Part shown: positions 32,419-48,145 of the stretch, piece by piece | Layout: every line of letters starts with the position of its first letter | How positions within the stretch are numbered: the stretch's first letter is position 1 | NCBI GenBank assembly: GCA_902544525.1 | Contig: CACCCN010000004.1 | Coordinates: 1,083 to 65,082, forward strand | DNA length: 64,000 bases | DNA from: an uncultured Pelagibacteraceae bacterium | GTDB taxonomy: Bacteria; Pseudomonadota; Alphaproteobacteria; Pelagibacterales; AG-422-B15 | Reading direction: 5' to 3' | Translations under genes and position numbers: made by a program | Notes under the pieces: model-generated | The model's input: only the letters and a program-made list of their open reading frames with translations | The model's database searches: none | Told to the model about the DNA's origin: nothing

Positions 32419-33957
32419 TTGATTTATATCGTTGATTTTGGCTCACAAGTTACACAACTAATAGCTAGAAGAGTGCGAGAAGCAAATGTTTACTGTGAAA
32501 TTGTAAGTAACAAAAATCTATTGGTTAAAATTAAAGATAAAGAACCAACAGGCATTATTTTTTCAGGCGGGCCTGCTAGCGTTCACAAATTGCATACACC
32601 CAAGATTGATCAGAAAATTTTCTCACTAAATATTCCTATTCTAGGGATTTGTTATGGAATGCAATTAATAGTTCATCAGCTAGGTGGAAAGGTTGAGATA
32701 TCTAAACAACGCGAGTTTGGTAAAACTTTGATAACCCATAAGAACAAGAGTAAGCTTTTTCGTGGTCTAAAGTTAAAAAATAAACAGCATTTTGTATGGA
32801 TGAGCCACGGTGATAAAGCTATTAAACTTCCAAAACATTTTAAGACAATAGCAACTAGTAAAAACTCTAAATTTGTTGGTATAGAAAATAAAGATTTAAA
32901 CATCTACGGTTTACAATTCCACCCCGAAGTAGTTCACACTAATCAAGGCGAAAAAATATTAAATAATTTTATAATACATGTATGTAAAACTAAGCCTACT
33001 TGGAGCATGCAAAATTATTTGAAAACTCAAATTACAAAGATTAAGAATGACGTCAAAAAAGATCACGTAATATGTGGATTATCTGGAGGTGTGGATAGTA
33101 TGGTAACCGCAGCGATAATTTCTAAAGCTATTAATAAACAACTTACTTGTATTTATGTCGACACCGGTCTGATGCGACTTCATGAAACTAAAGAAGTGCA
33201 AAACTTATTTAAAAAACATTTTAAATCAAAGTTAGTGACAATTGATGCAAAGAATAAATTCTTTACTGCACTAAAGGGTGTTTCTGACCCAGAAAAAAAA
33301 CGTAAAATTATCGGTAATTTATTTATTAAAATATTTAATACTGAATCTAAAAAAATTAAAAAAGCAAAATTTTTAGCTCAGGGTACAATCTATCCTGATA
33401 TAATTGAAAGTCAGAGTTTTCATGGTGGACCTACATCAGTGATAAAGTCTCATCATAATGTTGGTGGGCTTCCAAAAGATATGCAATTAGATCTTGTGGA
33501 GCCATTAAGAGAACTATTTAAAGATGAGGTGCGAAGATTAGGTAAAGAATTAAAATTACCAAAAGAATTCATTCAAAGACATCCATTTCCAGGACCTGGA
33601 TTGGGTATTCGAGTGTTAAGCAATATAACTAAAGATAAAGTAAAAATGCTTCAACAGGCAGATAAAATATATATTGATGAGATTAAGGCAGCAAATTTAT
33701 ATAATGAAATATGGCAAGCCTTTGCAGTCTTATTGCCTGTAAGAACTGTGGGTGTAATGGGTGATCAAAGATCATACGAATTTGTATGTGGATTAAGAGC
33801 TGTTACTTCTGTGGATGGTATGACTGCAGATTTTTATCCATTTAGTGGAGAATTTTTAAGTAGAGTTTCGACTCGTATTATAAATGAAGTCAAAGGTATT
33901 AACCGAGTAGTATATGATACAACCTCTAAACCACCGGGCACTATTGAGTGGGAATAA
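32419..33957 (+). CDS. guaA: GMP synthase (glutamine-hydrolysing)
   Basis: TTG start preceded by AGGAG. GATase catalytic GICYGMQ, ATP-PPase SGGVDS, and C-terminal GTIEWE. Confidence 0.97.
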   Translation: MIYIVDFGSQVTQLIARRVREANVYCEIVSNKNLLVKIKDKEPTGIIFSGGPASVHKLHTPKIDQKIFSLNIPILGICYGMQLIVHQLGGKVEISKQREFGKTLITHKNKSKLFRGLKLKNKQHFVWMSHGDKAIKLPKHFKTIATSKNSKFVGIENKDLNIYGLQFHPEVVHTNQGEKILNNFIIHVCKTKPTWSMQNYLKTQITKIKNDVKKDHVICGLSGGVDSMVTAAIISKAINKQLTCIYVDTGLMRLHETKEVQNLFKKHFKSKLVTIDAKNKFFTALKGVSDPEKKRKIIGNLFIKIFNTESKKIKKAKFLAQGTIYPDIIESQSFHGGPTSVIKSHHNVGGLPKDMQLDLVEPLRELFKDEVRRLGKELKLPKEFIQRHPFPGPGLGIRVLSNITKDKVKMLQQADKIYIDEIKAANLYNEIWQAFAVLLPVRTVGVMGDQRSYEFVCGLRAVTSVDGMTADFYPFSGEFLSRVSTRIINEVKGINRVVYDTTSKPPGTIEWE

Positions 33958-33958
33958 A
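33937..33958 (+). repeat. Core repeat copy A (the guaA 3' end including the stop)
   Basis: GGCACTATTGAGTGGGAATAAA. Identical 22-mers recur at 34597-34618 and 35031-35052. Confidence 0.95.
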
Positions 33959-34080
33959 TTAAATAATACAATAAAATCAATAACTTAAGGTCAAATATTT
34001 TTTAAAATGAGTTGATCTCAATTTTACTCTTACTAGTTTTGATTAATTTGCATTTTTAACAAATAACTGTAGATTTAGAA

Positions 34081-34491
34081 ATGTCTAATTTAATTGAATG
34101 TATAGATTGTGGTAAACAAGTTTCAAAACGAGCGACTACATGCCCTAATTGTGGAGCGCCAGTAAAACTTACAATAGCAGAAATTGAAAAACCAAAAAAA
34201 AGTTATACGCAAATAGAGCAGGAAAAACTTGAAGCAAAATTAGGGGTGAAAAAAAAGTCTGAATATGACCCCCAGAATGACCCCCAGAATGAGTCACCTG
34301 TTGGACGTTATTTAAATAGTTGGAGAACCAGTAAAAATAAAAAAATCCATCCATTATATATAATTTTAATAGCTGTTGTTGGTGTTATTATTTTTCATGA
34401 CTCAGTTTATACAATTTCGTATTGTGAGGCGAGAGGTTTTTCCAATGCTTGGATTGCTGATTGTAAAGATCGCATGCGTTGGCTATTTTAA
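34081..34491 (+). CDS. Zinc-ribbon membrane protein, hypothetical (unit 1 cargo)
   Basis: N-terminal CIDCGKQV...CPNCGAPV zinc ribbon, Lys/Glu-rich linker, one TM helix (LYIILIAVVGVIIF), and a Cys-containing tail. Same orientation as guaA. Confidence 0.55.
   Translation: MSNLIECIDCGKQVSKRATTCPNCGAPVKLTIAEIEKPKKSYTQIEQEKLEAKLGVKKKSEYDPQNDPQNESPVGRYLNSWRTSKNKKIHPLYIILIAVVGVIIFHDSVYTISYCEARGFSNAWIADCKDRMRWLF
34267..34290 (+). repeat. Perfect 12-bp tandem duplication GACCCCCAGAAT x2
   Basis: Encodes DPQN-DPQN inside the zinc-ribbon protein linker. Confidence 0.9.
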
Positions 34492-34528
34492 TGAAGTTTT
34501 TTGGATTACCGAACTTAATAAATTAATT

Positions 34529-34618
34529 CTTACACAAAACTTACACACTTTAAAAACAGCCGCTGTAAGCATTGCTACATAAGGCTTTTAAAAACCGGCA
34601 CTATTGAGTGGGAATAAA
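34529..34618 (+). repeat. 90-bp direct repeat copy B (66-bp arm plus core), att-like
   Basis: CTTACACAAAACTTACACACTTTAAAAACAGCCGCTGTAAGCATTG... ending in the 22-bp guaA core. 83 of 90 positions match copy C. Confidence 0.9.
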
Positions 34619-34661
34619 AAATTATTTGAATAGTTGCTCTAGTTAGAATACAAGTCTGTTA

Positions 34662-34949
34662 ATGGATAGACTTATTAATCATATATTTTCAACATTATTT
34701 CCATTAACAATTTCATTAAAAACTGAGAGAATTTTAAAAAATTTTGCTCTGTTACTTGGAATACTTAGCGCACTTGCAATTATTTTTAATTGGTATCCTC
34801 TTGCTATGTTTTTTTCTTTTCCATTCTGTTTGATTTGGATTTATATGGCGTGGTTACACACTGAGCCTCAATTAAAATGGGTGAATTTGATTTTCCTTTT
34901 AATTTACCTTTTTGGTATTGTTGGATACTTATCTAAAATATACCTTTAA
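34662..34949 (+). CDS. Small hydrophobic membrane protein, hypothetical (unit 2 cargo)
   Basis: 95 aa with about 3 predicted TM helices. Same orientation as guaA. No recognisable family. Confidence 0.45.
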   Translation: MDRLINHIFSTLFPLTISLKTERILKNFALLLGILSALAIIFNWYPLAMFFSFPFCLIWIYMAWLHTEPQLKWVNLIFLLIYLFGIVGYLSKIYL

Positions 34950-34962
34950 AAATAAATGAAAA

Positions 34963-35052
34963 CTTGCACAAAACTTACACACTTTAAAAACAGCCGCTGT
35001 AAGCATTGTTATACAAGGCTTCTACAAACTGGCACTATTGAGTGGGAATAAA
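34963..35052 (+). repeat. 90-bp direct repeat copy C (66-bp arm plus core), att-like
   Basis: CTTGCACAAAACTTACACACTTTAAAAACAGCCGCTGTAAGCATTG... ending in the 22-bp guaA core. The following ORF can start inside it. Confidence 0.9.
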
Positions 35053-36159
35053 TTGAAAAATAAAGTTTGGGTTATTGTTATAACATTACTAATGTCATTA
35101 ATAACTACTAATAGTCAAGCAAACGAAACTACCTATAAGACTAAGCGTGTCCCAGCTGAATGGGAGCGCCAGGAGGCGATTTGGATGCAATGGCCTGGAT
35201 ATTGGGAAAAAGATTATGAAATAACTTTTGCTAAGATAAGTGAAATTGTTTCGCGTTACGAAAAGCTTAATATTCTATACGATTCAAAACAAATCTATGA
35301 AGATGCGCAAAAAGCTATAAGAGATATCGAGGCAGATCCAAACAATAAAAATATCTATTGGCATAAAGTGCCTAATGATAATGCTTGGATGAGAGATAAT
35401 GGTCCTGTTTATGTTATAGATAATAATGAGTTAAGGATTCAAAATTGGAATTTTGATGCATGGGGTGGTGCATTTGGTTCAGATATTTCATTTCAACTTG
35501 ATAACACTATTCCAGATAAAGTTGGTGAAATATTAGGCTTACCTGTTGATCATATTGATATAGTACATGAACGAGGTAATTTAGAATTTAATGGATCTGA
35601 TGCAGTTATATTAAATTGGAGTACTATTGGTGATACAAACCGAAATTTAAATTACAATAAACAGCAAGCAGAAATTGATCTAAAAAAACATTTTGGAGTA
35701 ACTAAAGTTATTTTTATTGAAGGTGTACCTGAAGGAGATCTTACAAAAGGACATATTGATGGTATTGCAAGATTTATTGGATTGAGAACTGTAGTTGTAG
35801 TTGAATGTACCACCCAGTCATTATGTCAACCAGGTAGCAAAGACGCAGAAATTTATGATAAAGCAGCGGAAATAATCGGTAAAGCAGGTTTTCAAATTAA
35901 GAGAGAGCCTATTGAAGGCTTTGTTAAATACAACGACCAAATGTTTGATACAAATTATATGAATTGGTTAGTTGGAAATGGATTTGTAATAGTACCTGGT
36001 TTTGGAAATCCAGAAACAGATATTCCAGCTAAATCGCGCATACAAAGCTATTTTCCCAATCGTAACGTATATTTAATTGAGATGTTAAGCTCTTGGGCAG
36101 CTGGGGGTGGGGTGCACTGTCATACGAATGATCAACCTTTATTTCCAATATCCAAATAA
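35038..36159 (+). CDS. Agmatine deiminase / Porphyromonas-type peptidyl-arginine deiminase family protein
   Basis: PAEWERQEAIWMQWP N-terminal block and C-terminal catalytic-Cys block GGGVHCHTNDQP. The start is ambiguous: TTG 35038, TTG 35053 (both would give a signal peptide), or ATG 35092 (cytoplasmic, canonical length). Confidence 0.8.
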   Translation: MSGNKLKNKVWVIVITLLMSLITTNSQANETTYKTKRVPAEWERQEAIWMQWPGYWEKDYEITFAKISEIVSRYEKLNILYDSKQIYEDAQKAIRDIEADPNNKNIYWHKVPNDNAWMRDNGPVYVIDNNELRIQNWNFDAWGGAFGSDISFQLDNTIPDKVGEILGLPVDHIDIVHERGNLEFNGSDAVILNWSTIGDTNRNLNYNKQQAEIDLKKHFGVTKVIFIEGVPEGDLTKGHIDGIARFIGLRTVVVVECTTQSLCQPGSKDAEIYDKAAEIIGKAGFQIKREPIEGFVKYNDQMFDTNYMNWLVGNGFVIVPGFGNPETDIPAKSRIQSYFPNRNVYLIEMLSSWAAGGGVHCHTNDQPLFPISK

Positions 36160-36198
36160 ATCTCTATAATCCAACATACGTAAAATAAGAATTTTTAA

Positions 36199-36732
36199 AT
36201 GGATTATGTAAAATCTCAAAAGATTATTCATTGGGTAATGGCATTTTTAATCATGCTTGATTTATTCATTGCACAAAAATTTGGAGGTGAGATGGAGTTG
36301 TGGGATAGATTAGAATCTCGAGTTGACCACGCAACAGTTGGCCTAATTGTAACTTTTTTATTTGTTCTCAGATTATTTCTTCGATATAGACATGGAGCTC
36401 CAAGCTTACCGACCTCTATGCCCAAATGGCAAATGCTTGCTGCTAATTTGGGACACTACGGTCTATATTTTCTAATGGGGGCATTAATTGTTACTGGAAT
36501 TATATCTGCAAGCTTTGCATCTGATCCAATAATTGTTTTTGGCTCATTTGATCTTGCTTTTGCTAATCACTCTGTTGAATTTTTTATTTTAGTTAGGACC
36601 ATTCACGAGTTTTGTACTAATGCTATAATTGTCTTAATTTTAATTCATATACTTGCTGCAGTATATCATCATTATATTGCAAAAGATGATACAACCTCAA
36701 AAATGCTAAAGTTTTGGACGTCAAAAGTCTAA
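36199..36732 (+). CDS. Cytochrome b561 family protein (CybB-like)
   Basis: 177 aa with 4 TM helices. Conserved His residues are placed as in CybB (IHWVMA near the N-terminus; HILAAVYHH near the C-terminus). Confidence 0.8.
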   Translation: MDYVKSQKIIHWVMAFLIMLDLFIAQKFGGEMELWDRLESRVDHATVGLIVTFLFVLRLFLRYRHGAPSLPTSMPKWQMLAANLGHYGLYFLMGALIVTGIISASFASDPIIVFGSFDLAFANHSVEFFILVRTIHEFCTNAIIVLILIHILAAVYHHYIAKDDTTSKMLKFWTSKV

Positions 36733-36765
36733 TTTTCTAACACATAACTAAAAATTTATTTTGTA

Positions 36766-37617
36766 ATGGATATTAATAAATTAAAAAAATCAGAAACACT
36801 AGATGTGTACGGGTTAGATCATTCTCCTTGGGTACAATCCATTTTACTTAGCTTATATGATAATAAACTTAATTATAATATAAGAACTATTCCAACTTTA
36901 AGTTTGTTATCAAAAAGTGGGGTCATGATGCCAGCAATACGCATTGATGATTCACAATGGAAATTAGATTCAATGGAAATATTATTATCTTTTGGGTATG
37001 ATTCTATTCCAAGTTCTGAAAAAAAATTAATTTTTAGAACCTGGCAAGGAGTACAACATAGAGTTGATAATCCTTTTAAATTTTTTTATTATTTCAGTCT
37101 CTGCAGGGGGTTTAATAAAAATAAAATCTTTAACTTAGTTAGCCATGCTCTTAGACCTATAATAACAATTTATTTTTTTACGCTTTTAAATATTATTAAA
37201 ATAAAAATAAAAAAATTTAATAGTAATGAGAATTTTCTCGATCAGTATACTTACTGGAATAATAAACTATCAAAACAAGGAACAAAATTTTTTGGTGGTG
37301 ACGTTCTTAATATTATTGATTATCAGTTATTTGGTATCATTCAATCGCATTGTAGTATCCCTTTCTTGCCATTAATTGAAACTCTTCAGAAAAATCAAGA
37401 ATTAGATTATTTAAGAAAATGGATTTCAGATATGCAATTTAAATTTGCTGATTACCCACATTTATATTCAGCTGACTATTTTTTACCTAAACAAAAAAAA
37501 ATTGAAAAAGCATCATTTGTTGAAAGAGGTATATATTGGTTTGGCCTGATTAGTTTCCTTGCTATGTTGCCAATTACGCTACTTTTATTGACATATCTGC
37601 TTTTAATAAGAAAGTAG
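36766..37617 (+). CDS. Hypothetical protein with a GST-N/thioredoxin-like start and a C-terminal membrane anchor
   Basis: The N-terminus LDVYGLDHSPWVQSILLSL resembles a GST N-terminal SP[FWY] motif. There are internal and C-terminal hydrophobic helices. Weak call. Confidence 0.3.
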   Translation: MDINKLKKSETLDVYGLDHSPWVQSILLSLYDNKLNYNIRTIPTLSLLSKSGVMMPAIRIDDSQWKLDSMEILLSFGYDSIPSSEKKLIFRTWQGVQHRVDNPFKFFYYFSLCRGFNKNKIFNLVSHALRPIITIYFFTLLNIIKIKIKKFNSNENFLDQYTYWNNKLSKQGTKFFGGDVLNIIDYQLFGIIQSHCSIPFLPLIETLQKNQELDYLRKWISDMQFKFADYPHLYSADYFLPKQKKIEKASFVERGIYWFGLISFLAMLPITLLLLTYLLLIRK

Positions 37618-37712
37618 AAAACACTCAAAAATCACAATTATTTGTTATTTAAATATATACTTAATTAAAATGACACCACTGAAGATTTATGCAAAAATTA
37701 TTTATAATTTAA

Positions 37713-39032
37713 ATGAATACAAAAAATATACCCAATAAAAATTACAGAACTTTTGTGTTAATTCTATTAACAATTGTTTATGGCTTTAATTTTATTGATC
37801 GACAAATTGTAGGTATACTTGCACCCTTTATTCAGCAAGATCTAGGCCTGTCAAATACGCAACTAGGGTTACTTATTGGACTTGCTTTTGCAACTCTCTA
37901 TACCACAGTTGCTATTCCTCTTGCTTGGTTAGCCGATAGATATAATAGAGTTAATATATTATCAATTGCTTTAGCTACATGGAGTGGGTTTACAGCTTTA
38001 ACTGGACTAGCAAATAACTTCTTTCAAATTGCGATAGCTAGAATGGGAGTGGGTATTGGTGAGGCAGGAGGAAGCCCTCCATCACATTCAATCATATCAG
38101 ATTTATATGCTAAAGAAGAACGAGCAGGTGCATTAGGAGTGTACTCAATGGGTATACCACTTGGAATCATGGCAGCGTATTTTGCAACTGCCGCACTTAT
38201 GGGAACTTCTGCAGAAGAAGTTAATTGGAGGCGAATTTTTATTTTTCTTGGCCTTACTGGTATTGCACTTGCAGTTGTACTTAGAATAGTTTTGAGAGAA
38301 CCAGTTCGTGGAGCAATGGAATTTGAGGGCAAAGTTGAAATTGAACAGCCACCATTTTTAGAATCACTAAAAGTTCTTTTAAAAATTCCTGCATGGTGGG
38401 CTATGTGTTTTGGCATAGCTTTTGGATCTTTTGCAGCTTATTCATCTGCTGCATTTCACACTAAGTATTTAATTACACTTGATCCTAGTTATAATATTCA
38501 AAAAATGATTATCATTTTAGGTTTTATAAATGGCATAGCATATGTTGGCGGTACATATTTTGGTGCTAAACTTGCTGATAAGTGGGGCCAAAAAGATATT
38601 CGTGCGTATGGTTGGTTGCCCGCAATAACCATTTTCACTTGTTTACCAATTGGGGTTATTAGTTATTGGGTACCTTCAGTAAATTTAAATCTTATTTGGA
38701 CAACATTATTTCTAGTATTTATAGGCGTATATTTGGGTCCAAGTTTTGCTATAGCTCAAACATTAGCGCCAATTAAAATGCGAGCAATGTCTACGGCTTT
38801 ATTTTTCTTTATTTTAAATATGATAGCGCTTGGCGGCGGCCCTACATTTTCTGGATGGCTTATGGATGTGTTTAAAGAGAACTATAATGATTTGGAATCC
38901 ATTCGACTTGCTATGACAGTGACTTTTTTTATATTTATACCATCAGCTATTAGTTTTTTTATGGTCTCGAAGTTTTTGCCAAGAGACTGGCAAGCTGCTG
39001 AAAAAAGGAACCTTGAATCAGCAAAATCATAG
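37713..39032 (+). CDS. MFS transporter
   Basis: About 12 TM helices and the MFS loop 2-3 motif LADRYNR. Confidence 0.85.
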   Translation: MNTKNIPNKNYRTFVLILLTIVYGFNFIDRQIVGILAPFIQQDLGLSNTQLGLLIGLAFATLYTTVAIPLAWLADRYNRVNILSIALATWSGFTALTGLANNFFQIAIARMGVGIGEAGGSPPSHSIISDLYAKEERAGALGVYSMGIPLGIMAAYFATAALMGTSAEEVNWRRIFIFLGLTGIALAVVLRIVLREPVRGAMEFEGKVEIEQPPFLESLKVLLKIPAWWAMCFGIAFGSFAAYSSAAFHTKYLITLDPSYNIQKMIIILGFINGIAYVGGTYFGAKLADKWGQKDIRAYGWLPAITIFTCLPIGVISYWVPSVNLNLIWTTLFLVFIGVYLGPSFAIAQTLAPIKMRAMSTALFFFILNMIALGGGPTFSGWLMDVFKENYNDLESIRLAMTVTFFIFIPSAISFFMVSKFLPRDWQAAEKRNLESAKS

Positions 39033-39107
39033 TTTAAAACTATCTATAGTCGAAACATCTTAATATTAAGTATATTATTTATAGTTATTAATGAAGTAAG
39101 ATAAATA

Positions 39108-39272
39108 ATGAAAAATAAACATATAAACTTCCTTGGATGGGTACTTTTTATTATATCAGCTATAGGATTTTGCATTTCTAGTATAGGCCATTTTTGGTCA
39201 ATGTTTGGAAGCATCTTCTTTTTAATTGCTTGTTTGGTTTTTTTAATTCCATTTTTTAAAAATGAAGAGTAA
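39108..39272 (+). CDS. Unannotated 54-aa two-TM small protein
   Basis: Hand translation gives MKNKHINFLGWVLFIISAIGFCISSIGHFWSMFGSIFFLIACLVFLIPFFKNEE. It fills a 254-bp gap and is below the ORF-track cut-off. Confidence 0.35.
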   Translation: MKNKHINFLGWVLFIISAIGFCISSIGHFWSMFGSIFFLIACLVFLIPFFKNEE

Positions 39273-39286
39273 ATAGTGATACAGAT

Positions 39287-39784
39287 ATGGTTGCTAGTTT
39301 ATTAAAATGGTTTCAAAAGAAAAACTTTGTCGATTTTAGCTGGTTAAAAAAAGCTGAATTCATTGAATTGGATGAAATTGATGTCTCTGAGGATCCTGTA
39401 AGACCTGAATTAGATTTAGCTTGGAGGAAATCTTTTGATCGAAAGATTTATGGCCTTAAGCATAACGACTCAATTCAAGCTATTATGTGTTTAGCATTTA
39501 CTAATGACGTTCCACATACTGTTCGTGAGTTAGATTTAATGAGTAAGGTAACTAAGTATGAAGAAAATGCCGACACGATTATTGCCTATACAGTTTGGTC
39601 TCGAAAAAAAGGAGCTGGCCAAAAAATAATGGAAGAAGCACTTAGTTTTGCTAAAAGTAATGGCTATAAAAGAATTGTGACACTCTCTCCATTAACACCA
39701 ATGGCAACCCATTATCATATTAGAAATGGTGCAAAACTTTTAGGCTTAAATCCTACAACCCAAAATTTTGAATACTCTCTATAA
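39287..39784 (+). CDS. Possible GNAT-fold acyltransferase
   Basis: R-x-x-G-x-G/A-like motif (SRKKGAGQKIMEEAL) followed by a beta-strand and helix, typical of the GNAT motif A region. Otherwise unrecognised. Confidence 0.35.
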   Translation: MVASLLKWFQKKNFVDFSWLKKAEFIELDEIDVSEDPVRPELDLAWRKSFDRKIYGLKHNDSIQAIMCLAFTNDVPHTVRELDLMSKVTKYEENADTIIAYTVWSRKKGAGQKIMEEALSFAKSNGYKRIVTLSPLTPMATHYHIRNGAKLLGLNPTTQNFEYSL

Positions 39785-39805
39785 TTTTTTTAAAAAGGAA
39801 TGACA

Positions 39806-40111
39806 ATGATTACAGTAGTAGTTAAGTTTAAAATATCTGACACATTAACCTCCAAAATTTTAAAAGAAAAATTTATTGAAACTTCTACAATGTACCAAAA
39901 GGTTGATGGATTATTAAGAAAAAATTATATTGCCGATATCGAAAATAAGTATGCTGGAGGGGTATATACATTTGTATCCATGAAAAGTGCTAAAAATTGG
40001 TTTGATGAAGATAGAATTGAATGGATTACGCAGCGATTTTCAAAACCAGAAGTAGCTTATTATGAAAGTCCCGTTATAGTTGATAATGAAAAAAATCTAA
40101 TAATTTCATAA
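39806..40111 (+). CDS. Small YdhR/ABM-like alpha-beta-barrel protein
   Basis: About 100 aa starting MITVVVKFKI. The second ATG was chosen because AAGGA lies 6 nt upstream. Family call is tentative. Confidence 0.35.
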   Translation: MITVVVKFKISDTLTSKILKEKFIETSTMYQKVDGLLRKNYIADIENKYAGGVYTFVSMKSAKNWFDEDRIEWITQRFSKPEVAYYESPVIVDNEKNLIIS

Positions 40112-40136
40112 TCAACAAACATGAAGACTTAAAAAG

Positions 40137-40733
40137 ATGTTAGCCAAAATTTTAGATGATCAAGTCCCTAATCACTTTAAAGGACGATGGGGAGGGCTTT
40201 TTCAATTACTTGGAAGAGTTGTCTTGGGTGCTTCTGGATGGCAAATTATAGGCAAAATACCAAATGAAGAGAGAGTTTTAATCATCGCAGCTCCTCATAC
40301 ATCAAACTGGGATTTTATTCTTGGAATTGCGGCCCTATTTGCACTGAATGTGAATATAAAATGGCTTGGTAAGCATTCAATATTCTTACCGGGGATTGCC
40401 TGGTTCTTTAAATGGTTAGGCGGAATTCCTGTAAATAGAGAAAATCCAAGCTCGCTGATAGATTATGTTGTTCGGACAGTTGAAAAGGAAAAAGGGCTGA
40501 TGATTGGTATGGCTCCTGAGGGATCGAGAAAAAAAACAAGTAGATGGAAAAGTGGTTTTTTAAGAATTGCTGAGCAAACAAATTCAAAAATAGTTTTTCT
40601 ATCGATAGATGCTCCTGTCAAAACTTTAAAGATAGGTGAGATTTATACTCCAAGTGGTGATACTAATCGAGATATAGATTTTGTTATGAATTATTATAAG
40701 CAATTTAAGGGTATTAATCCTGAACAATCATAG
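40137..40733 (+). CDS. PlsC-type lysophospholipid/glycerolipid acyltransferase
   Basis: Hx4D catalytic motif (HTSNWD) and PEGSR block (MAPEGSRK). Confidence 0.75.
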   Translation: MLAKILDDQVPNHFKGRWGGLFQLLGRVVLGASGWQIIGKIPNEERVLIIAAPHTSNWDFILGIAALFALNVNIKWLGKHSIFLPGIAWFFKWLGGIPVNRENPSSLIDYVVRTVEKEKGLMIGMAPEGSRKKTSRWKSGFLRIAEQTNSKIVFLSIDAPVKTLKIGEIYTPSGDTNRDIDFVMNYYKQFKGINPEQS

Positions 40734-40744
40734 AAAAATTATTT

Positions 40745-41374
40745 ATGAAATGTATTGTTTGTAAAAGCAGCAAAGTTATTTTTAGGTATGTAGAAGGTAA
40801 AAAATATTGGACATGTAAATACTGTCTAGCAAAATTTTTAGACAGTAAACATCACTTAGACCCTTTATCGGAGAAGAAACGTTATCTAGAGCACAATAAT
40901 CAGATTAAAGACGAAAAATACAGAAAATTTTTATCAAGACTGTTAAAGCCATTAGAAAAAAAAATATCAAGCAACGATAATGGATTAGAATTTGGATGTG
41001 GACATGGACCAGCCTTAGCAGATATGCTCATCGGTAATGGCTATAAAGTTGATTTATATGATCCATTTTTTTTTCCAAATAAAGATCTTTTAAATAAGCA
41101 ATATAAATTTGTAACGTGCACAGAAACTGTTGAACATTTTTTTGATCCTTATAATGAATTTACTTTACTGGATAAGTTATTATTAAGCGGTGGCTGGCTT
41201 GGGGTTATGACATGTTTTTTAACAGCTGATAGTCAGTTTGATAAATGGTACTATAGAAAAGACCCTACACATGTTGTATTTTATGCGAGGGAAACATTCG
41301 AAATAATAGCAGAACAAAGAGATTGGACTTGTGAGATACCCACTAAAGATATAGTTTTATTTTGTAAAAAATAG
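40745..41374 (+). CDS. Class I SAM-dependent methyltransferase with an N-terminal zinc ribbon
   Basis: CIVC...CKYC at the N-terminus. SAM motif I LEFGCGHG. Confidence 0.7.
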   Translation: MKCIVCKSSKVIFRYVEGKKYWTCKYCLAKFLDSKHHLDPLSEKKRYLEHNNQIKDEKYRKFLSRLLKPLEKKISSNDNGLEFGCGHGPALADMLIGNGYKVDLYDPFFFPNKDLLNKQYKFVTCTETVEHFFDPYNEFTLLDKLLLSGGWLGVMTCFLTADSQFDKWYYRKDPTHVVFYARETFEIIAEQRDWTCEIPTKDIVLFCKK

Positions 41375-41382
41375 ACAAAAAA

Positions 41383-42306
41383 ATGCTTTCAAGACAATTA
41401 ACTGCCACCATTTCCTTGGTCATTGCATCTTTTATATGGGGTACTGCATTTGTAGCGCAAACAACAGGAATGGATTTCATTGGTCCTTTAACGTTTATAA
41501 ATATTCGGTTTTTGATTGGGGTATTAGTAATATTACCGTTTTTCTTAATCGAGAGAAACGTACTATTTAAAGTAGATTTAAAAAGAAAAAATAGACTGTA
41601 TATAATTATTTTTTTAACAGGAGCGTCACTTTTTTTAGGTTCTTTTTTACAGCAATATGCTCTTCAGTATACCAAAGTTGGAAATGCTGCATTTTTAACG
41701 ATCTTATATGTTCCATTTGTTCCAATAATTTCAAGATTTTTTTTAAATAAAAAAATTCATTGGTCTATCTGGCTTTCGGTAAGTATTTGTTTAGCTGGAT
41801 CATACTATTTATCTACAGGCAATTCTTTTAAAGCTCAATCAGCTGATATCATAGTTGCCATTTGTGCCATATTTTTTGCTCTCCATTGCATCTTGATCGA
41901 TGAATTCTTTGAAATTGTCAATGCGCCTTATTCATTGGCATTTTTTCAATTTCTTACATGTTTCATTATTAGCTTTCCATTAATGTTTATTTTTGAAGAA
42001 CCATCATTATCAGGTATTTATGAAGAGATTGGACAATTATTATATGTAGGAGTTATGTCAACTGGGGTTGCTTATACATTGCAAATTATTGGTCAAAATT
42101 ATGTAAAACCATCAACAGCAGTAATAACCTTGTCCCTTGAGGGTGTATTTGCCGCTTTAGCTGCATGGATCATAATATCTCAAGTTCTAACTCCGATTCA
42201 AATATTTGGATCAGTCTTAATCATCTTAGGGGTTGTAATTGCTCAGTTAATTCCATTAGTAAATAAAGAAGCAGCAAATCAAAGATTTTACGATGGTCAA
42301 AAGTAA
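41383..42306 (+). CDS. DMT superfamily (EamA-type) transporter
   Basis: 10 TM helices with two EamA-like repeats. 307 aa. Confidence 0.8.
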   Translation: MLSRQLTATISLVIASFIWGTAFVAQTTGMDFIGPLTFINIRFLIGVLVILPFFLIERNVLFKVDLKRKNRLYIIIFLTGASLFLGSFLQQYALQYTKVGNAAFLTILYVPFVPIISRFFLNKKIHWSIWLSVSICLAGSYYLSTGNSFKAQSADIIVAICAIFFALHCILIDEFFEIVNAPYSLAFFQFLTCFIISFPLMFIFEEPSLSGIYEEIGQLLYVGVMSTGVAYTLQIIGQNYVKPSTAVITLSLEGVFAALAAWIIISQVLTPIQIFGSVLIILGVVIAQLIPLVNKEAANQRFYDGQK

Positions 42307-42607
42307 TAGCAAAAACAAAAAATTTATGAAACTTAAAAATGGAACCAAGTTTGAAATTAAAGTTTGGAATTCAATTTCTAAAATACCTAGAGGCGAAGTT
42401 AGAACATATAAAGAATTGGCTATTCAAATAAATAGACCTAAATCCGCAAGGGCTGTTGCCAATGCTTGTGGAAAAAATCCTTACCCTGTGAAAATACCTT
42501 GTCACAGAGTAATACGTTCAGATGGTAAACTAGGAGGTTACAGTGGTAAAGGTGGAACAAAAACAAAAAAAAAGCTTCTTAAAAATGAAGGTTATTTGTA
42601 TGAGTGA
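42293..42607 (+). CDS. ogt: Methylated-DNA--protein-cysteine methyltransferase, single-domain
   Basis: Active-site PCHRV and YKELA...AVANACGKNP helix-turn-helix region. Only the C-terminal catalytic domain is present. Confidence 0.85.
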   Translation: MVKSNSKNKKFMKLKNGTKFEIKVWNSISKIPRGEVRTYKELAIQINRPKSARAVANACGKNPYPVKIPCHRVIRSDGKLGGYSGKGGTKTKKKLLKNEGYLYE

Positions 42608-42965
42608 TTTACAACCAGATCTACTAATTGATAATTATGTATTTTGCACTTTCCCTCACAAAAAATACGGTGATTTAGAGCACTTAAGTCCAATTGGTTT
42701 TTTTCAAGAAAATGAAGGTATTACATTAGTGATTACTGAAAAAATGGCAAACCTCCATAATCTCAGTTTTGAAGGTATTTTTAAATGCATATCATTGAAG
42801 TTAATATCAACATTATCTAGTGTGGGATTAACTAAGAAAATCGCTAACATATTAGCTAATAAAGATATTAGTGCAAATATTTATGCAGGTTATTATCATG
42901 ATCACATATTTGTACCTTTAGAAAGAGCAGATGAAGCCTTTATGTTACTTTCTGAAAGTAAGTAA
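42600..42965 (+). CDS. ACT-domain-like small protein
   Basis: Start set at the ATG overlapping the ogt stop (ATGAGTGA). Pattern resembles the ACT_7-type uncharacterised family. Tentative. Confidence 0.4.
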   Translation: MSDLQPDLLIDNYVFCTFPHKKYGDLEHLSPIGFFQENEGITLVITEKMANLHNLSFEGIFKCISLKLISTLSSVGLTKKIANILANKDISANIYAGYYHDHIFVPLERADEAFMLLSESK

Positions 42966-42997
42966 TTAGAATATAATTAGTAACTGTAAAAATATAT

Positions 42998-43822
42998 ATG
43001 ACAGAAATAAATCAGACTATTAATGTTGAAAAACTATCTATGATTAAAATAGATAGTTTACCAATGATCACCCCTAGAGATAAGTGGAATAGCCTCAAGC
43101 AGGACTTAAAATATAAATACTTACCATTTCGACTTTATCACCGAATTAGGTGTTTTAAATACGCAAAATATAGAAACCCTGAGCTAAAACTTATTTCAAG
43201 TTTTGTTAACAAGAATCAAAATTCAGTTGATGTCGGAGCGAACTTAGGGCTATTTACTCACTACATGTCTAAATCTTCGAAACATGTTTATGCATTCGAA
43301 CCAAACCCATATCCACTTGAAAACCTGAAATATCTTGTAGATAATAATGTGACAATATTGCCTATAGCGTTGGGAAGTTCAGATGGGCCTACTGAAATCA
43401 GAATTCCTCATCATGCAAATGGCTGGTCTTCTAATGGCGCATCTCTTGCACCAAAATCTAATGAAGGTGGTAAATTAATAAATATTCAATGTAGAAAGCT
43501 TGACAGTTTAAAACTTGAAAATATTGGATTAATTAAAATTGATGTTGAGGGCTTTGAGATGGAAGTAATTATGGGAGCAAAAGATGTAATCAAAGAGCAT
43601 AAGCCGGTAATGATTATTGAAAATGAAATTGTTCATACAAAAGATACAAATGAATTATTTTCAGTTATGGATGAGATGGGTTTTGATAAATATTTTTGTA
43701 ATAGAAACGGAAAGCTAGAACAAATTGAAAATTTTTCAATAAAAGATCATCAAATTAATGCAGCAAATAAAGATATTGATTATATTCAAAATTATATTTT
43801 TATACCTAAAAAAAATAAATGA
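42998..43822 (+). CDS. FkbM family methyltransferase
   Basis: SAM motif VDVGANLGLFT and the downstream IKIDVEGFE block, characteristic of FkbM. Confidence 0.7.
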   Translation: MTEINQTINVEKLSMIKIDSLPMITPRDKWNSLKQDLKYKYLPFRLYHRIRCFKYAKYRNPELKLISSFVNKNQNSVDVGANLGLFTHYMSKSSKHVYAFEPNPYPLENLKYLVDNNVTILPIALGSSDGPTEIRIPHHANGWSSNGASLAPKSNEGGKLINIQCRKLDSLKLENIGLIKIDVEGFEMEVIMGAKDVIKEHKPVMIIENEIVHTKDTNELFSVMDEMGFDKYFCNRNGKLEQIENFSIKDHQINAANKDIDYIQNYIFIPKKNK

Positions 43823-44481
43823 ATAAAACGTTAACAGAAATAATTAATAGTCGTAAATCAATAAGAGCATTCTTAGACAAGCCTGTAGACAATAAAGTAA
43901 TAGAGGAGATGCTTAAAATGGCTTCACAAGCACCGTCAGGAGGCAACCTGCAGCCATGGAAAATCTATGTGATCAATTCTAGCTCAATGGATAAATTTAT
44001 AAATTTTCAAAAAAAATGGAAAGGCAAAGAAGAACCTCCCTATCCAATATATCCAGAAAAACTCAAAGAACCATATAGAACTTCTAGGTACGAAGTGGGT
44101 GAAGAAATGTATTCTTTACTTGGAATAAAAAGAGAAGATAAAGTTGGAAGATTAAATCAGATGCTCAAGAATTTTGATTTTTTTGGCGCTCCAGTTGGCC
44201 TATTTTGTTTTGTTGATAAGCAAATGGGTTTGCCTCAATGGTCTGATTTAGGGATGTTTCTTCAAACTTTTATGTTGTTAGCGGTCGACCAAGATCTTGA
44301 TACTTGCGCTCAAGAGTCTTGGTCTTTAAAGCAAAACTGTGTAAAAGAATTTTTAAAAGTTCCCGATGAATATATATTATTTTGTGGTATGGCTATTGGC
44401 TACGCAGATAAAGATAGTAAAATAAATAAACTACAAACCACAAGAAGGCCAATCGATGATTGGGCAACTTTTGTTAAATAA
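43819..44481 (+). CDS. Nitroreductase family protein
   Basis: RKSIRAF...APSGGNLQPW nitroreductase N-terminal motif. 4-nt overlap with the FkbM gene. Confidence 0.8.
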   Translation: MNKTLTEIINSRKSIRAFLDKPVDNKVIEEMLKMASQAPSGGNLQPWKIYVINSSSMDKFINFQKKWKGKEEPPYPIYPEKLKEPYRTSRYEVGEEMYSLLGIKREDKVGRLNQMLKNFDFFGAPVGLFCFVDKQMGLPQWSDLGMFLQTFMLLAVDQDLDTCAQESWSLKQNCVKEFLKVPDEYILFCGMAIGYADKDSKINKLQTTRRPIDDWATFVK

Positions 44482-44564
44482 ATAATTTATATAAAACAAT
44501 AACTTATATTGAATTTACTGTTTATATAGAAAATTCTAATCAATTAAACTAAAAGACTTAATTT

Positions 44565-45386
44565 ATGAGCAGAAAAACTATTCATGATATTCAAGCTAAA
44601 ACTGGTAAAGAAAAGATTACTTGTTTAACTGCTTATACGGCACCAATAGCAAGATTACTCGACCAGCATGTAGATATTTTATTGGTTGGTGACTCACTTG
44701 GTATGGTATTGTATGAATACGAAAATACGCTTCCCGTTACTCTAGATCAAATGATTGAGCACACAAAATCAGTTATTAAAGCAACTTCAGATTCATGTGT
44801 AATTATGGATCTTCCATTTGGCACATATGAGGAGTCAAAGCAATTAGCATTAAAAAACGCACTAACTGCAATTAAGGATACTAACTGTGCTGGTGTAAAA
44901 TTAGAAGGTGGTACTCTAATAGAAGAAACTGTTAAGTACATAACCGAGAGAGGGGTTCCTGTAATGGGACATATTGGATTGCAACCTCAAAGCGTAATAA
45001 TTGATGGTGGATATAAAATTAAAGGTCGCGATAAATTTGAATGGAAAAAATATATTGATGATGCTGTTGCATTAGAAAGAGCTGGTGCTTTTAGTGTAGT
45101 GTTAGAGGGTATGGCAGAGCCCTTAGCTGAGGAGATAACAAAAACAATAAATATTCCTACTATAGGTATTGGTGCTTCAGCAAAATGTGATGGCCAAGTT
45201 TTGGTAACAGAAGACATGCTTGGATTGACAAATATTTCACCTAAATTTGTTAAGGAGTATGCAAACCTTAGAGCTCCAATAGAAAAAGCTGTGAAACAAT
45301 ATGTCAGTGATGTAAAATTAGGTAAATTTCCTGAGCAACAGCATACTTATCAAATGAAACCTTCAATTGTGAAAGATAATAAGTAA
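44565..45386 (+). CDS. panB: 3-methyl-2-oxobutanoate hydroxymethyltransferase
   Basis: CLTAYT, LLVGDSLGMV and GVKLEGG blocks. Confidence 0.95.
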   Translation: MSRKTIHDIQAKTGKEKITCLTAYTAPIARLLDQHVDILLVGDSLGMVLYEYENTLPVTLDQMIEHTKSVIKATSDSCVIMDLPFGTYEESKQLALKNALTAIKDTNCAGVKLEGGTLIEETVKYITERGVPVMGHIGLQPQSVIIDGGYKIKGRDKFEWKKYIDDAVALERAGAFSVVLEGMAEPLAEEITKTINIPTIGIGASAKCDGQVLVTEDMLGLTNISPKFVKEYANLRAPIEKAVKQYVSDVKLGKFPEQQHTYQMKPSIVKDNK

Positions 45387-47329: not shown

Positions 47330-48145
47330 GTGGAGAAAATCAATTTTTTAATTGTAGGCAAGCCAAATTCGGGTAAGTCAACTTTTTACAACACGTTAAA
47401 TAATAAGTATCTCTCTCCTACAGGCCCAGAATCTGGATTGACTAAAGATATTTTTAAAAGTGAAGTTAAGATACTAAATACAAACTTCGTTTTTTTTGAT
47501 ACACCGGGACTTCGTCGTAAAAATAAAATAAATGATAAAAATGAAACAAAACTAACATATGAAGTTATTAATTTAATTGATAAAATTGATGTTGTATTTT
47601 TATTAGTTGACTCCAGTGAAAACTTAACAAAGCAAGACCTCAAAATTGCTGAAATTGTAATAAAAAGAAAAAAAATATTATTTGTTGTATTCAATAAAAT
47701 TGATCTTATCGATGATATTCATAAGTTTAAAAAGGAACAAAAACTTTATTTCTTAGATAATTATAGCCCCGCAAATACTATTAATCTTAAGTTTATCTCT
47801 GCACTTTCTATTGAGAGCATTGAACAAATTTTAAAAACTGTTATTAGAACTTTTAAAATTAAATCACTCAAAATAAGTACTCCAAAACTTAATAATTTTG
47901 TGAGAGATATTCTAAAAAATCAAAAATTTCCTAAAATTAATAAAATTGAAGTTAAGCCGAAGTATATGGTTCAAACTGATGACGATTATCCTAGATTTAA
48001 AGTTTTTCTTAATTCAAGTAAAAAAGTACCCCAGACTTATAGACGCTTTTATGAAAATATACTTAGAAAGAAATTTTCTTTAATTGGTGTGCCAATAAAA
48101 ATAGATTTCATTAACTCGAAAAATCCATATCTGAAGAAAAATTGA
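47330..48145 (+). CDS. der: Der/EngA-derived GTPase with a single G domain plus the Der-type KH-like domain
   Basis: GTG start. G1 GKPNSGKS, G3 DTPG, G4 NKID. The C-terminal PRFKVFLNSSKKVPQTYRRFYENILRKKF...PIKIDF matches the Der KH-like domain. At 271 aa there is no room for a second G domain. Confidence 0.7.
   Translation: MEKINFLIVGKPNSGKSTFYNTLNNKYLSPTGPESGLTKDIFKSEVKILNTNFVFFDTPGLRRKNKINDKNETKLTYEVINLIDKIDVVFLLVDSSENLTKQDLKIAEIVIKRKKILFVVFNKIDLIDDIHKFKKEQKLYFLDNYSPANTINLKFISALSIESIEQILKTVIRTFKIKSLKISTPKLNNFVRDILKNQKFPKINKIEVKPKYMVQTDDDYPRFKVFLNSSKKVPQTYRRFYENILRKKFSLIGVPIKIDFINSKNPYLKKN

What the first reader, a model, noticed from the sequence alone, without database searches (positions are those of the whole stretch)
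33937..35052. Triplicated guaA 3'-end core delimiting two recombinase-less single-gene mini-cassettes
The last 22 bp of guaA (GGCACTATTGAGTGGGAATAAA, including the stop) are repeated exactly and in direct orientation at 34597-34618 and 35031-35052.

The two distal copies are each preceded by a shared 66-bp arm (34529-34596 and 34963-35030). Across the full 90 bp the two copies match at 83 positions. The arm contains two CTTACACA 8-mers spaced 11 bp apart and a CAGC-C-GCTG mini-palindrome. That layout resembles arm-type and core-type binding sites of a tyrosine recombinase attachment site.

The repeats delimit two units of 660 bp and 434 bp. Each carries one small ORF, a zinc-ribbon membrane protein and a 3-TM protein. 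Both ORFs are co-oriented with guaA, so they could be expressed by read-through.

Beyond GTIEWE-stop, the arm does not translate into a GuaA-like C-terminus. The arms therefore belong to the inserted units and are not guaA pseudo-ends.

Site-specific integration into the guaA 3' end is known for some genomic islands, for example GIsul2-type elements. Here, however, the units are far too small to encode their own integrase, and none is present in the 64 kb. The architecture (ORF plus recombination site, serially added next to a fixed anchor) is integron-like in logic, but the sites are not attC-like.

This may be a trans-mobilised cassette-accretion system operating in a streamlined genome.
Basis: partly seen in the sequence, partly recalled or inferred. 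Interest (0 to 1): 0.78.

Follow-up and report, generated by a model that had tools for sequence, protein, structure and literature searches.

The report
Integrase-less gene cassettes stacked behind guaA
Two tiny one-gene DNA cassettes sit one after the other at the end of the guaA gene of a SAR11 ocean bacterium, each ending in the docking site of a guaA-specific integrase found in related marine bacteria, which suggests how these minimal genomes, thought to lack mobile elements, pick up and swap accessory genes.

Summary
The last 22 bp of guaA occur three times exactly (33937, 34597, 35031; 0 expected). Copies 2 and 3 each follow a shared arm (83/90 identical with the core).

The window is SAR11. 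Close relatives have empty sites (guaA-core-B'), one unit, or different units. Cassette 1 occurs with identical boundaries in at least 6 array contexts, including a single insertion into an otherwise empty site.

The arm layout is two 8-mers 11 bp apart, 60-75 bp upstream of the core. The same layout is found at the right end of islands encoding a ~405-aa lambda-like tyrosine integrase. That integrase always sits directly after guaA, in SAR11 LRMED-209, SAR86 (including isolate HIMB1674), Arenicellales and Nitromaritima. These islands are seen integrated, in tandem and as circularly permuted contigs.

The window itself has no recombinase. The arms do not fold like attC sites.

Best reading: these are non-autonomous cassettes accreted by site-specific recombination at the guaA core. 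GIsul2/CR2-sul2 is an experimental precedent for this at guaA.

Not shown: the cognate integrase for the window's CTTACACA motif, and present-day mobility.

Verdict: a new variant of a known kind. Interest 0.68.

The parts
32419..33957 (+). guaA (GMP synthase), the fixed anchor. Its last 21 nt plus the next base form core copy 1, and the stop codon lies inside the core.
   Evidence: 512-aa ORF. It is 75-90% identical to Pelagibacteraceae GuaA. Homologs carry GATase/GMP_synt_C Pfam domains.
33937..33958 (+). Core copy 1: the attL-type junction between the guaA end and the left end of cassette 1.
   Evidence: Exact 22-mer, 3 copies, 0 expected.
33959..34618 (+). Cassette 1 (C1): left end, one ORF, P-type arm, core.
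   Evidence: The same unit with the same boundaries occurs in L136, L137, L139, L140 and L141/142, each with different neighbours. L139 reads guaA|C1|B'.
34081..34491 (+). C1 cargo ORF, 136 aa: N-terminal zinc ribbon plus one hydrophobic segment. It contains a 12-bp tandem duplication at 34265-34288.
   Evidence: PF13240/PF13248 hits. Only 7 homologs in 5.8 billion proteins. Tandem duplication seen.
34517..34596 (+). P-type arm of C1, with tandem arm-type 8-mers CTTACACA at 34529-34536 and 34540-34547, a TAAGCATTG box and an AAGGCTT box.
   Evidence: The 8-mers and TAAGCATTG are near-invariant across 15 arm copies attached to at least 5 different cargos.
34597..34618 (+). Core copy 2: right end of C1 and left end of C2.
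34619..35052 (+). Cassette 2 (C2): left end, one ORF, P-type arm, core.
   Evidence: C2 lies directly after guaA in L008, between two other cassettes in L103, and third in the array in L115.
34662..34949 (+). C2 cargo ORF, 95 aa: small hydrophobic (about 3-TM) protein of unknown function.
   Evidence: No Pfam or PADLOC hit. 140 homologs at 67-94% identity.
34951..35030 (+). P-type arm of C2, with 8-mers CTTGCACA at 34963-34970 and CTTACACA at 34974-34981.
35031..35052 (+). Core copy 3: the attR-type junction. The next gene starts within or just after it.
   Evidence: L008 has a decayed version of this arm and core at the same place.
35053..39286 (+). Distal flexible genes with no detectable att remnants: PAD/agmatine-deiminase-like, cytochrome b561, GST-like 283 aa, MFS transporter, and a 54-aa membrane ORF.
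   Evidence: Pfam. These genes are absent between guaA and the anchor gene in L002/L004/L007. No arm-like sequence in the intergenic spacers. Small ORF seen.
39287..39784 (+). Anchor gene (165 aa, weak GNAT-like hit), which directly follows guaA at empty sites in relatives.

Best explanation
The three 22-bp repeats are crossover cores left by successive site-specific insertions into the 3' end of guaA in a SAR11 (Pelagibacteraceae) genome.

Each inserted unit is a miniature cassette without an integrase. It consists of one small ORF co-oriented with guaA, an arm of about 80 bp, and a core. The arm carries two 8-mer arm-type sites one helical turn apart, about 60-75 bp upstream of the core, plus conserved boxes nearer the core.

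The arm is the P arm of an attP/attR site for a family of ~405-aa lambda-type (arm-binding) tyrosine integrases. These integrases specifically target the ATTGARTGGGA core at the guaA stop codon. Because the core contains the stop codon, GuaA stays intact after insertion.

Integrase-bearing islands of this family (int, a small serine recombinase, and cargo) occur in some SAR11 and in many SAR86 and other marine cells. The mini-cassettes are non-autonomous passengers built by such an integrase, and probably still moved by one supplied in trans. New units enter at a core. Older units lie further out, where their att sites erode.

Shown here: the repeats, the insertion polymorphism, modular reuse of cassettes, a shared att architecture with integrase-bearing islands, the guaA specificity of the family, and the absence of a recombinase in the window.

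Inferred: which integrase acts on this arm type, that the cassettes are still mobile, how they travel between cells, and expression by read-through from guaA.
For: Insertion signature:
- Empty sites read guaA-core-B' (GAAGACTATTTAACTAAAATCTAACC) in L002 and L007.
- The same B' follows the last core in occupied sites L001, L015, L136 and L139.

Modularity:
- C1 has identical boundaries in 6 contexts.
- C2 occurs in 4 contexts.
- A ydhR-like cassette with the same arm occurs in L081-83 and L102.
- One arm family (85-100% identical) is attached to at least 5 unrelated cargos.

Integrase link:
- L012 (a SAR11 MAG) has a PF00589 integrase right after guaA.
- Where the flanking DNA could be read, the integrase lies directly behind guaA or behind an upstream unit's arm and core.
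- Every distal core, in all lineages, has a tandem 7-9-mer of period 11 at -60 to -75.
- Integrase-bearing units repeat the same motif at +39 to +63.
- The motif co-varies between P and P' arms within an element and differs between integrase subtypes.

Integrase structure: the model (pLDDT 86) has an N-terminal beta-sheet plus helix and aligns over 401 columns with full-length lambda Int, 1z1b.

Activity of the family: integrated, tandem (period 3938 bp) and circularly permuted forms with a joined P-core-P' site.

Cross-lineage transfer:
- The SAR11 L015 cassette is 92% identical in nucleotides to DNA behind a SAR86 int element.
- A 39%-GC C2 homolog sits directly after a 62%-GC guaA in L119.
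- C1 is 91% identical between lineages whose guaA 3' ends are 82.6% identical.

Precedent: GIsul2 Int excises and integrates the integrase-less CR2-sul2 unit between attLR and attR at guaA in recA- E. coli (PMC9376610).
Against: - No integrase with the window's CTTACACA motif was found. The one SAR11 integrase uses CACCTAA.
- Most mini-cassettes lack P' arm-type repeats, and their ORFs start 3-120 nt after the core. Lambda-type integrases normally need sites on both arms.
- No circular junction of a mini-cassette was seen.
- Decayed att sites (L008, L006) show that some units are fossils.
- Presence or absence within arrays could also arise by RecA recombination between the ~100-bp arm-plus-core repeats.
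- The 'circular' int-element contigs cannot be told apart from collapsed tandem arrays.
Confidence: 0.72

Rival explanations
1. Fossil relics. Each unit is the distal remnant of a once full-length integrase-bearing island, reduced by deletion. The cassettes are no longer mobile. Present variation comes from homologous recombination, either between the repeated arm-plus-core segments or through the conserved flanks guaA and the anchor gene.
For: - Decayed arm and core in L008, and a remnant in L006.
- Truncated resolvase in L012.
- P' arm repeats are missing from most mini-cassettes.
- No integrase in the window.
- Arms of about 100 bp at 85-100% identity could support RecA exchange.
Against: - Left boundaries lie exactly at the core in every context. 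Random deletion would not give that.
- L139 is a single C1 in an otherwise empty site.
- Foreign low-GC cassette DNA lies behind a high-GC guaA with no flanking homology.
- Cassette DNA is shared between SAR11 and SAR86.
- All three cores in the window are exact, while the arms have diverged by 10%.
Confidence: 0.2
2. Local tandem duplication of the guaA 3' region followed by divergence.
For: The repeats are direct and adjacent.
Against: - Apart from the arm and core, the two units share no sequence.
- Each unit occurs on its own elsewhere, with other neighbours and in other lineages.
- Empty sites exist.
Confidence: 0.01
3. A classical integron-like or Xer-dependent (IMEX / pdif-module-like) system. 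The cassettes would be recombined by IntI at folded attC sites, or by the host XerC/D at dif-like sites.
For: The logic resembles both: an ORF plus a recombination site, serially stacked, co-oriented, with no recombinase in the cassette.
Against: - Arm plus core does not fold on either strand (z from -0.5 to -1.05).
- The sites share architecture with the att sites of a lambda-type integrase encoded next to guaA in relatives.
- No intI-like gene lies next to the array.
- The core is a coding 3' end, not a dif-like palindrome. Its only dyad symmetry is the 4-bp pair CACT/AGTG.
Confidence: 0.03

Closest known systems
GIsul2 genomic island with its CR2-sul2 unit (guaA 3' end, Enterobacteria/Acinetobacter)
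   Same: - The target is the 3' end of guaA.
- There are three direct att cores (attL/attLR/attR).
- The tyrosine integrase lies next to guaA, and the island also has a resolvase gene.
- An integrase-less unit between two cores is excised and integrated by the island's integrase in trans (PMC9376610).
   Different: - The units here are single small genes of 0.35-2.4 kb, with no ISCR element or resistance genes.
- Arrays of several units occur without any integrase in the genome region.
- The hosts are streamlined marine SAR11 and SAR86.
- A tblastn search of the PLSDB plasmid collection with marine integrase P0036 found only hits below 25% identity. No close relationship to GIsul2 Int could therefore be shown, and no GIsul2 sequence was available for a direct comparison.
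CIMEs and accretion-mobilisation of ICEs (Streptococcus ICESt1/3 family); my own knowledge, not tested here
   Same: Non-autonomous elements flanked by att sites, lacking recombination genes, accreted in tandem at the 3' end of a housekeeping gene, and mobilisable by a related element's integrase.
   Different: No conjugation or mobilisation genes are seen here. The units are far smaller. The arm is shared among many different cargos.
Additive flexible genomic islands and tycheposon islands with recurring tRNA-3'-end repeats (Methylophilaceae fGI-2, Prochlorococcus, SAR11 tRNA-linked GIs)
   Same: - Streamlined marine or freshwater genomes.
- Islands built by repeated insertion at one site.
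- Partial copies of the target's 3' end mark cassette boundaries.
- Degenerate remnants are present.
(PMC10872708; bioRxiv 10.1101/2020.12.28.424599; PMC11796062.)
   Different: - The target here is a protein-coding gene (guaA), not a tRNA. The window has no tRNA.
- Each unit carries a defined, conserved P arm with tandem arm-type sites.
- The integrase family is distinct (int plus a small serine recombinase).
- The SAR11 study reports no canonical MGEs and only one integrase in its GIs.
Integrons
   Same: A fixed platform, co-oriented promoter-less single-gene cassettes each ending in a recombination site, and addition at the proximal site.
   Different: The sites are not attC hairpins. The recombinase is a lambda-type arm-binding integrase, not IntI, and it is not part of the platform. 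The cassette sites are nearly identical to each other rather than cassette-specific.

Membership tests
Site-specific integrative element of a tyrosine integrase at the guaA 3' end (GIsul2-like kind) | Direct repeats of the target gene's 3' end flank each unit, and the target gene is regenerated | tested here: met
   Three exact 22-bp cores. The guaA stop codon lies inside the core and GuaA ends in GTIEWE.
Site-specific integrative element of a tyrosine integrase at the guaA 3' end (GIsul2-like kind) | Insertion polymorphism: an empty attB in relatives with the same flanks | tested here: met
   L002 and L007 read guaA-core-B'. L139 reads guaA-core-C1-arm-core-B'.
Site-specific integrative element of a tyrosine integrase at the guaA 3' end (GIsul2-like kind) | The element encodes its own integrase | tested here: not met
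   No tyrosine or serine recombinase in the units or anywhere in the 64 kb. The units are therefore non-autonomous.
Site-specific integrative element of a tyrosine integrase at the guaA 3' end (GIsul2-like kind) | The att architecture matches that of integrase-bearing elements at the same site | tested here: met
   A period-11 tandem repeat at -60 to -75 from every distal core, and the same motif in the P' arm next to int.
Site-specific integrative element of a tyrosine integrase at the guaA 3' end (GIsul2-like kind) | The integrase is homologous to GIsul2 Int | tested here: inconclusive
   tblastn of P0036 against the PLSDB plasmids gave only hits below 25% identity. The pAB3 record was not in the collection. 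NCBIfam gave only sub-threshold Xer-like hits.
Site-specific integrative element of a tyrosine integrase at the guaA 3' end (GIsul2-like kind) | An excised circular form with a joined attP | tested here: inconclusive
   For the 3.9-kb int element, L148 is circularly permuted (127-bp overlap) and L145 is a tandem. The two explanations cannot be separated. No junction was seen for the mini-cassettes.
Integron | An intI gene and attI adjacent to the array | tested here: not met
   guaA is the neighbour, and there is no recombinase in the window.
Integron | attC sites: imperfect palindromes that fold as single strands | tested here: not met
   DNA folding of both strands of both arms gave z from -0.5 to -1.05. 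The small palindrome is not conserved.
Tycheposon / tRNA-targeting additive island | Integration into a tRNA or tmRNA gene, with partial tRNA repeats | tested here: not met
   No tRNA or tmRNA in the window. The repeats are the guaA 3' end.
CIME-type non-autonomous element | Flanked by functional att sites of a related autonomous element, with no recombination or transfer genes | tested here: met
   Cores plus a P arm of the family architecture, and cargo-only content. Whether the sites are functional was not testable.
CIME-type non-autonomous element | Mobilised in cis or trans by a conjugative element | not testable with these tools
   No conjugation genes were seen in any locus. The transfer route is unknown.
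Heterobivalent (lambda/Tn916-type) tyrosine integrase family (applies to the partner integrase, not to the window) | N-terminal arm-binding domain, core-binding domain and catalytic domain with conserved R, K, R and Y residues | tested here: met
   PF00589 at 45 bits. Invariant R240, K277, R349 and Y381 in 25 sequences. AF2 model: beta-sheet at residues 8-46 plus a helix at 52-71, aligned over 401 columns to full-length lambda Int 1z1b_A.

The most novel reading that the evidence does not exclude
A lambda-type integrase family, together with P-arm-only single-gene cassettes, forms an integron-like gene-capture and exchange platform anchored at the guaA stop codon. The platform would be shared across classes: SAR11 (Alphaproteobacteria), SAR86 and other Gammaproteobacteria, and Nitrospinota. 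The most abundant streamlined ocean bacteria would then draw on a common pool of promoter-less accessory genes expressed from guaA. A rare integrase-carrying subpopulation would service cassettes in the integrase-free majority.
Probability: 0.35. Interest if true: 0.85.

Novelty: new variant of a known kind. Interest (0 to 1): 0.68.

Why it matters
SAR11 is the most abundant bacterial clade in the ocean. Recent population-genomic work reports no canonical mobile elements in its genomic islands (PMC11796062), so how its flexible genes are gained and exchanged is still open.

A defined, sequence-specific cassette site behind guaA gives a concrete and testable mechanism for gene flow in streamlined genomes. 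Three features make it testable:
- It has a recognisable arm that can be used as a search handle.
- A partner integrase family is shared with SAR86.
- There are cases of the same cassette DNA in different classes.

A cultured host, SAR86 HIMB1674, carries an integrase island followed by mini-cassettes, so experiments are possible.

If the cassettes prove to be only fossils, the finding is still a clear record of how an additive island is built at a protein-coding target.

Tried and rejected
- **Arm 20-mer scans.** Viral contigs gave 0 hits. The genome and metagenome scans gave only 3 loci each. All six were useful, but none carried an integrase.
- **Core 18-mer in viral contigs.** Of 18 hits, 13 were guaA 3' ends of other bacteria, several at contig or provirus ends. 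The other 5 showed no guaA. None was SAR11.
- **Integrase searches.** The single integrase protein, and the integrase alignment, against viral contigs gave nothing. Against genomes, the single protein found only itself.
- **Cognate integrase for the CTTACACA motif.** I picked AT-rich family members and read their contexts. All were SAR86-type, with other motifs. The 20-mer of the tandem 8-mers had no viral hit. The CACCTAA motif of the SAR11 integrase occurs only in its own island.
- **Further decayed arms** in the window's distal flexible genes and in L013: none.
- **RNA and expression signals.** Rfam gave no hit in 30-42 kb. Promoter-like sites were no more frequent than chance, and there was no terminator.
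- **PADLOC** on the cassette proteins and on small ORFs of the int elements: nothing meaningful.
- **GIsul2 comparison** through plasmid pAB3: the record is not in the collection.
- **L140 as a possible cassette circle:** rejected. It is more likely an assembly break inside the shared 8-mer region.
- **Literature.** No paper combines guaA, SAR11 and integrase, or describes this array.
Full report
**1. Observation**

The 22-mer GGCACTATTGAGTGGGAATAAA occurs exactly three times in the window, all on the + strand, at 33937, 34597 and 35031. No further copy appears at up to 3 mismatches, and none is expected by chance.

The first copy is the end of a 512-aa guaA ORF, and the stop codon lies inside the repeat. 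Copies 2 and 3 are each preceded by a shared arm. The repeat extends to 102 nt (34517-34618 / 34951-35052) at 90% identity.

The tandem 8-mers are present with an 11-bp period: CTTACACA twice in arm 1, and CTTGCACA then CTTACACA in arm 2. The two units (660 and 434 bp) each hold one ORF co-oriented with guaA. One is a 136-aa zinc-ribbon protein and the other a 95-aa hydrophobic protein. The only slip is that the '66-bp arm' coordinates span 68 bp.

**2. Organism and site polymorphism**

GuaA is 75-90% identical to Pelagibacteraceae SAGs and MAGs, so the window is SAR11. I compared 15 SAR11 guaA loci plus loci recovered with the arm.

- **Empty sites.** L002, L004 and L007 have guaA followed, after one core and a short spacer, by the homolog of window gene 39287-39784. 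In L002 and L007 the spacer is B' (GAAGACTATTTAACTAAAATCTAACC).
- **Occupied sites.** Other genomes have two cores, spaced 355, 396, 533, 558, 1194 or 2438 bp apart, and each pair encloses different cargo.
- **Insertion signature.** The same B' follows the last core in L001 and L015, and in L136 and L139. L003 and L005 have a similar spacer. This is the signature of insertion with duplication of the target core.

In the window, the DNA from 33958 to 39286 is absent from the empty-site genomes. This stretch holds C1, C2, a PAD-type deiminase, cytochrome b561, a GST-like protein, an MFS transporter and a 54-aa ORF. Only C1 and C2 are still bounded by arm and core.

**3. Modularity of the cassettes**

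C1 occurs with the same left end (ATTAAATAATACAATAAAATCAATAAC...), the same ORF and the same arm-core in six contexts:

- guaA|C1|B' (L139)
- guaA|C1|anchor gene (L137)
- guaA|C1|another cassette|B' (L136)
- another cassette|C1 (L140)
- guaA|C1 variant|GST-like gene (L141/142)
- guaA|C1|C2 (the window)

C2 also occurs in several contexts:

- Directly after guaA in L008, where the arm and core behind it have decayed (one 8-mer lost, about 7 core mismatches).
- Between two other cassettes on the 1090-bp contig L103, which has three cores.
- Third in the array in L115.

One arm family, 85-100% identical, is attached to at least five unrelated cargos. Across 15 copies the tandem 8-mers and a TAAGCATTG box are nearly invariant. 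The CAGCCGCTG palindrome is replaced by AAAACTGCTAT in several copies, so it is not a conserved feature.

Cargo elsewhere includes GNAT, formyltransferase, saccharopine-dehydrogenase-like, methyltransferase, ydhR-like, DUF4345 and MerC genes.

**4. The recombinase partner**

L012 is a Pelagibacterales MAG (LRMED-209). Immediately after its guaA core it has a 408-aa ORF with PF00589 (45 bits against a cutoff of 27.1), then a 47-aa resolvase remnant and a DNA methylase.

Its homologs form a large marine family of about 405 aa. Where the upstream DNA could be read, the integrase lies directly behind guaA or behind an upstream unit's arm and core. The usual gene order is guaB-guaA-int-small serine recombinase-cargo. 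This holds in:

- SAR86 HIMB1674 (a complete genome) and SAR86 AG-339-G14
- a 45%-GC gammaproteobacterium
- Arenicellales
- Nitromaritima

.

In these islands the distal core is preceded by an arm with two 7-9-mers of period 11 at -60 to -75. The same motif recurs with period 10-11 at +39 to +63, next to int. The motif differs between integrase subtypes but co-varies between the two arms of one element. Observed motifs are GACACA, TTTGACAAAG, AACTAAG, GTTACGTAA, GTTACAAAG and CACCTAA. The window's arms fit this architecture exactly.

In HIMB1674, the 7.1-kb int island is followed by two further arm-core-bounded mini-units.

The AlphaFold model of the integrase (pLDDT 86) has an N-terminal four-stranded sheet plus helix. 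It aligns over 401 columns with full-length lambda Int, 1z1b. This fits a heterobivalent, arm-binding enzyme.

A 3.9-kb int-res element is seen in three states:

- integrated in two different guaA genes (L146, L147)
- as a tandem of period 3938 bp at guaA (L145)
- as a circularly permuted contig with a joined P-core-P' site (L148)

**5. What the window lacks**

- No integrase-family or resolvase homolog in six frames; the best E is 0.1.
- No recombinase among 20 otherwise unannotated ORFs.
- No tRNA.
- No Rfam hit in 30-42 kb.
- No terminator between guaA and the cassettes, and promoter-like sites no more frequent than chance.
- Arm plus core does not fold significantly on either strand, so the sites are not attC-like.

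**6. Horizontal movement**

- The SAR11 L015 cassette is 92% identical in nucleotides (78/85) to the DNA that follows the right-hand core of a SAR86 int element in L127.
- In L119/L120 a 39%-GC homolog of the C2 gene sits directly after a 62%-GC guaA.
- C1 is 91% identical between the window and L136/L139, whereas the guaA 3' ends of the two lineages are 82.6% identical, with L005 standing in for that lineage.

**7. Mechanism**

The best-supported reading is accretion of non-autonomous cassettes by a guaA-core-specific lambda-type integrase supplied in trans. Older units are pushed distally and decay.

A direct experimental precedent exists at the same gene. GIsul2 has attL/attLR/attR at the guaA 3' end, and its integrase excises and integrates the integrase-less CR2-sul2 unit in recA- E. 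coli (PMC9376610).

Open points:

- The integrase for the CTTACACA motif was not found.
- Most mini-cassettes keep only the P arm, and their ORFs start 3-120 nt after the core.
- No cassette circle was seen.

The main rival is that the cassettes are fossils now shuffled only by homologous recombination between arms or flanks. I put that at about 0.2.

**8. Novelty**

The kinds of system are known:

- guaA-targeting islands
- CIME-like non-autonomous units
- additive islands with recurring target-end repeats, for example tRNA-Lys repeats in Methylophilaceae (PMC10872708) and tRNA repeats in SAR11 GIs (PMC11796062)

I found no description of a guaA-anchored array of single-gene, arm-bearing cassettes in SAR11 or SAR86, nor of this int-res family. 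I therefore rate it as a new variant of a known kind. It is of real interest for marine microbial genomics because SAR11 islands are reported to lack canonical mobile elements.

Noticed in passing
window 57533-58796: A FabF/KAS-II-like gene appears split into a 76-aa N-terminal ORF (57533-57763) and an overlapping 363-aa ORF (57705-58796). This could be a frameshift or a sequencing error.
   Followed up: no
window 47330-48145; SAR11 loci L001-L015: The Der/EngA-like GTPase is only 271-278 aa in all the SAR11 loci, with one GTPase domain plus a KH-like domain. The gammaproteobacterial locus L109 has the usual 463-aa, two-GTPase form.
   Followed up: partly
L085, L087, L089-L098, L100, L101 (IMG/VR contigs): In unrelated bacteria whose GuaA ends PPATIEWE, many predicted provirus contigs start or end exactly at a guaA 3' end. 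The site therefore looks like a general integration hotspot well beyond SAR11.
   Followed up: partly
L145 1-7928; L148; L149: A 3.9-kb element (int, small serine recombinase, five small ORFs) is assembled as a tandem of period 3938 bp and as a circularly permuted contig with a 127-bp terminal overlap. A second element of 6648 bp is assembled as two copies.
   Followed up: partly
L119 6001-6288 (and L120): A 95-aa homolog of the cassette-2 protein (74% amino-acid identity, 39% GC) lies directly after a 62%-GC guaA in a 1.6-Mb genome of unknown taxon. It is evidently foreign DNA at the same site, and no second core was detected.
   Followed up: partly
window 34265-34288: An exact 12-bp tandem duplication (ATGACCCCCAGA, twice; DPQNDPQN) lies inside the cassette-1 ORF. 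Homologs are 118-137 aa long, against 136 aa here. Whether the length difference lies at this duplication was not checked.
   Followed up: no
L010 11540-12010: This SAR11 MAG has two sets of TTACACA-type tandem repeats after guaA, followed by an interrupted HsdM-like methylase N-terminus. It looks like a decayed restriction-modification island at the same site, cut off by the contig end.
   Followed up: partly
window 39109-39273: An unlisted 54-aa ORF with two hydrophobic segments lies between the MFS transporter gene and the anchor gene.
   Followed up: no
window 33958-44565 versus L002 5680-8332: The whole stretch from guaA to panB is variable among SAR11. It holds 3 genes in L002 and 16 in the window, so the att-bounded cassettes are only the proximal, youngest part of a larger flexible island.
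   Followed up: partly
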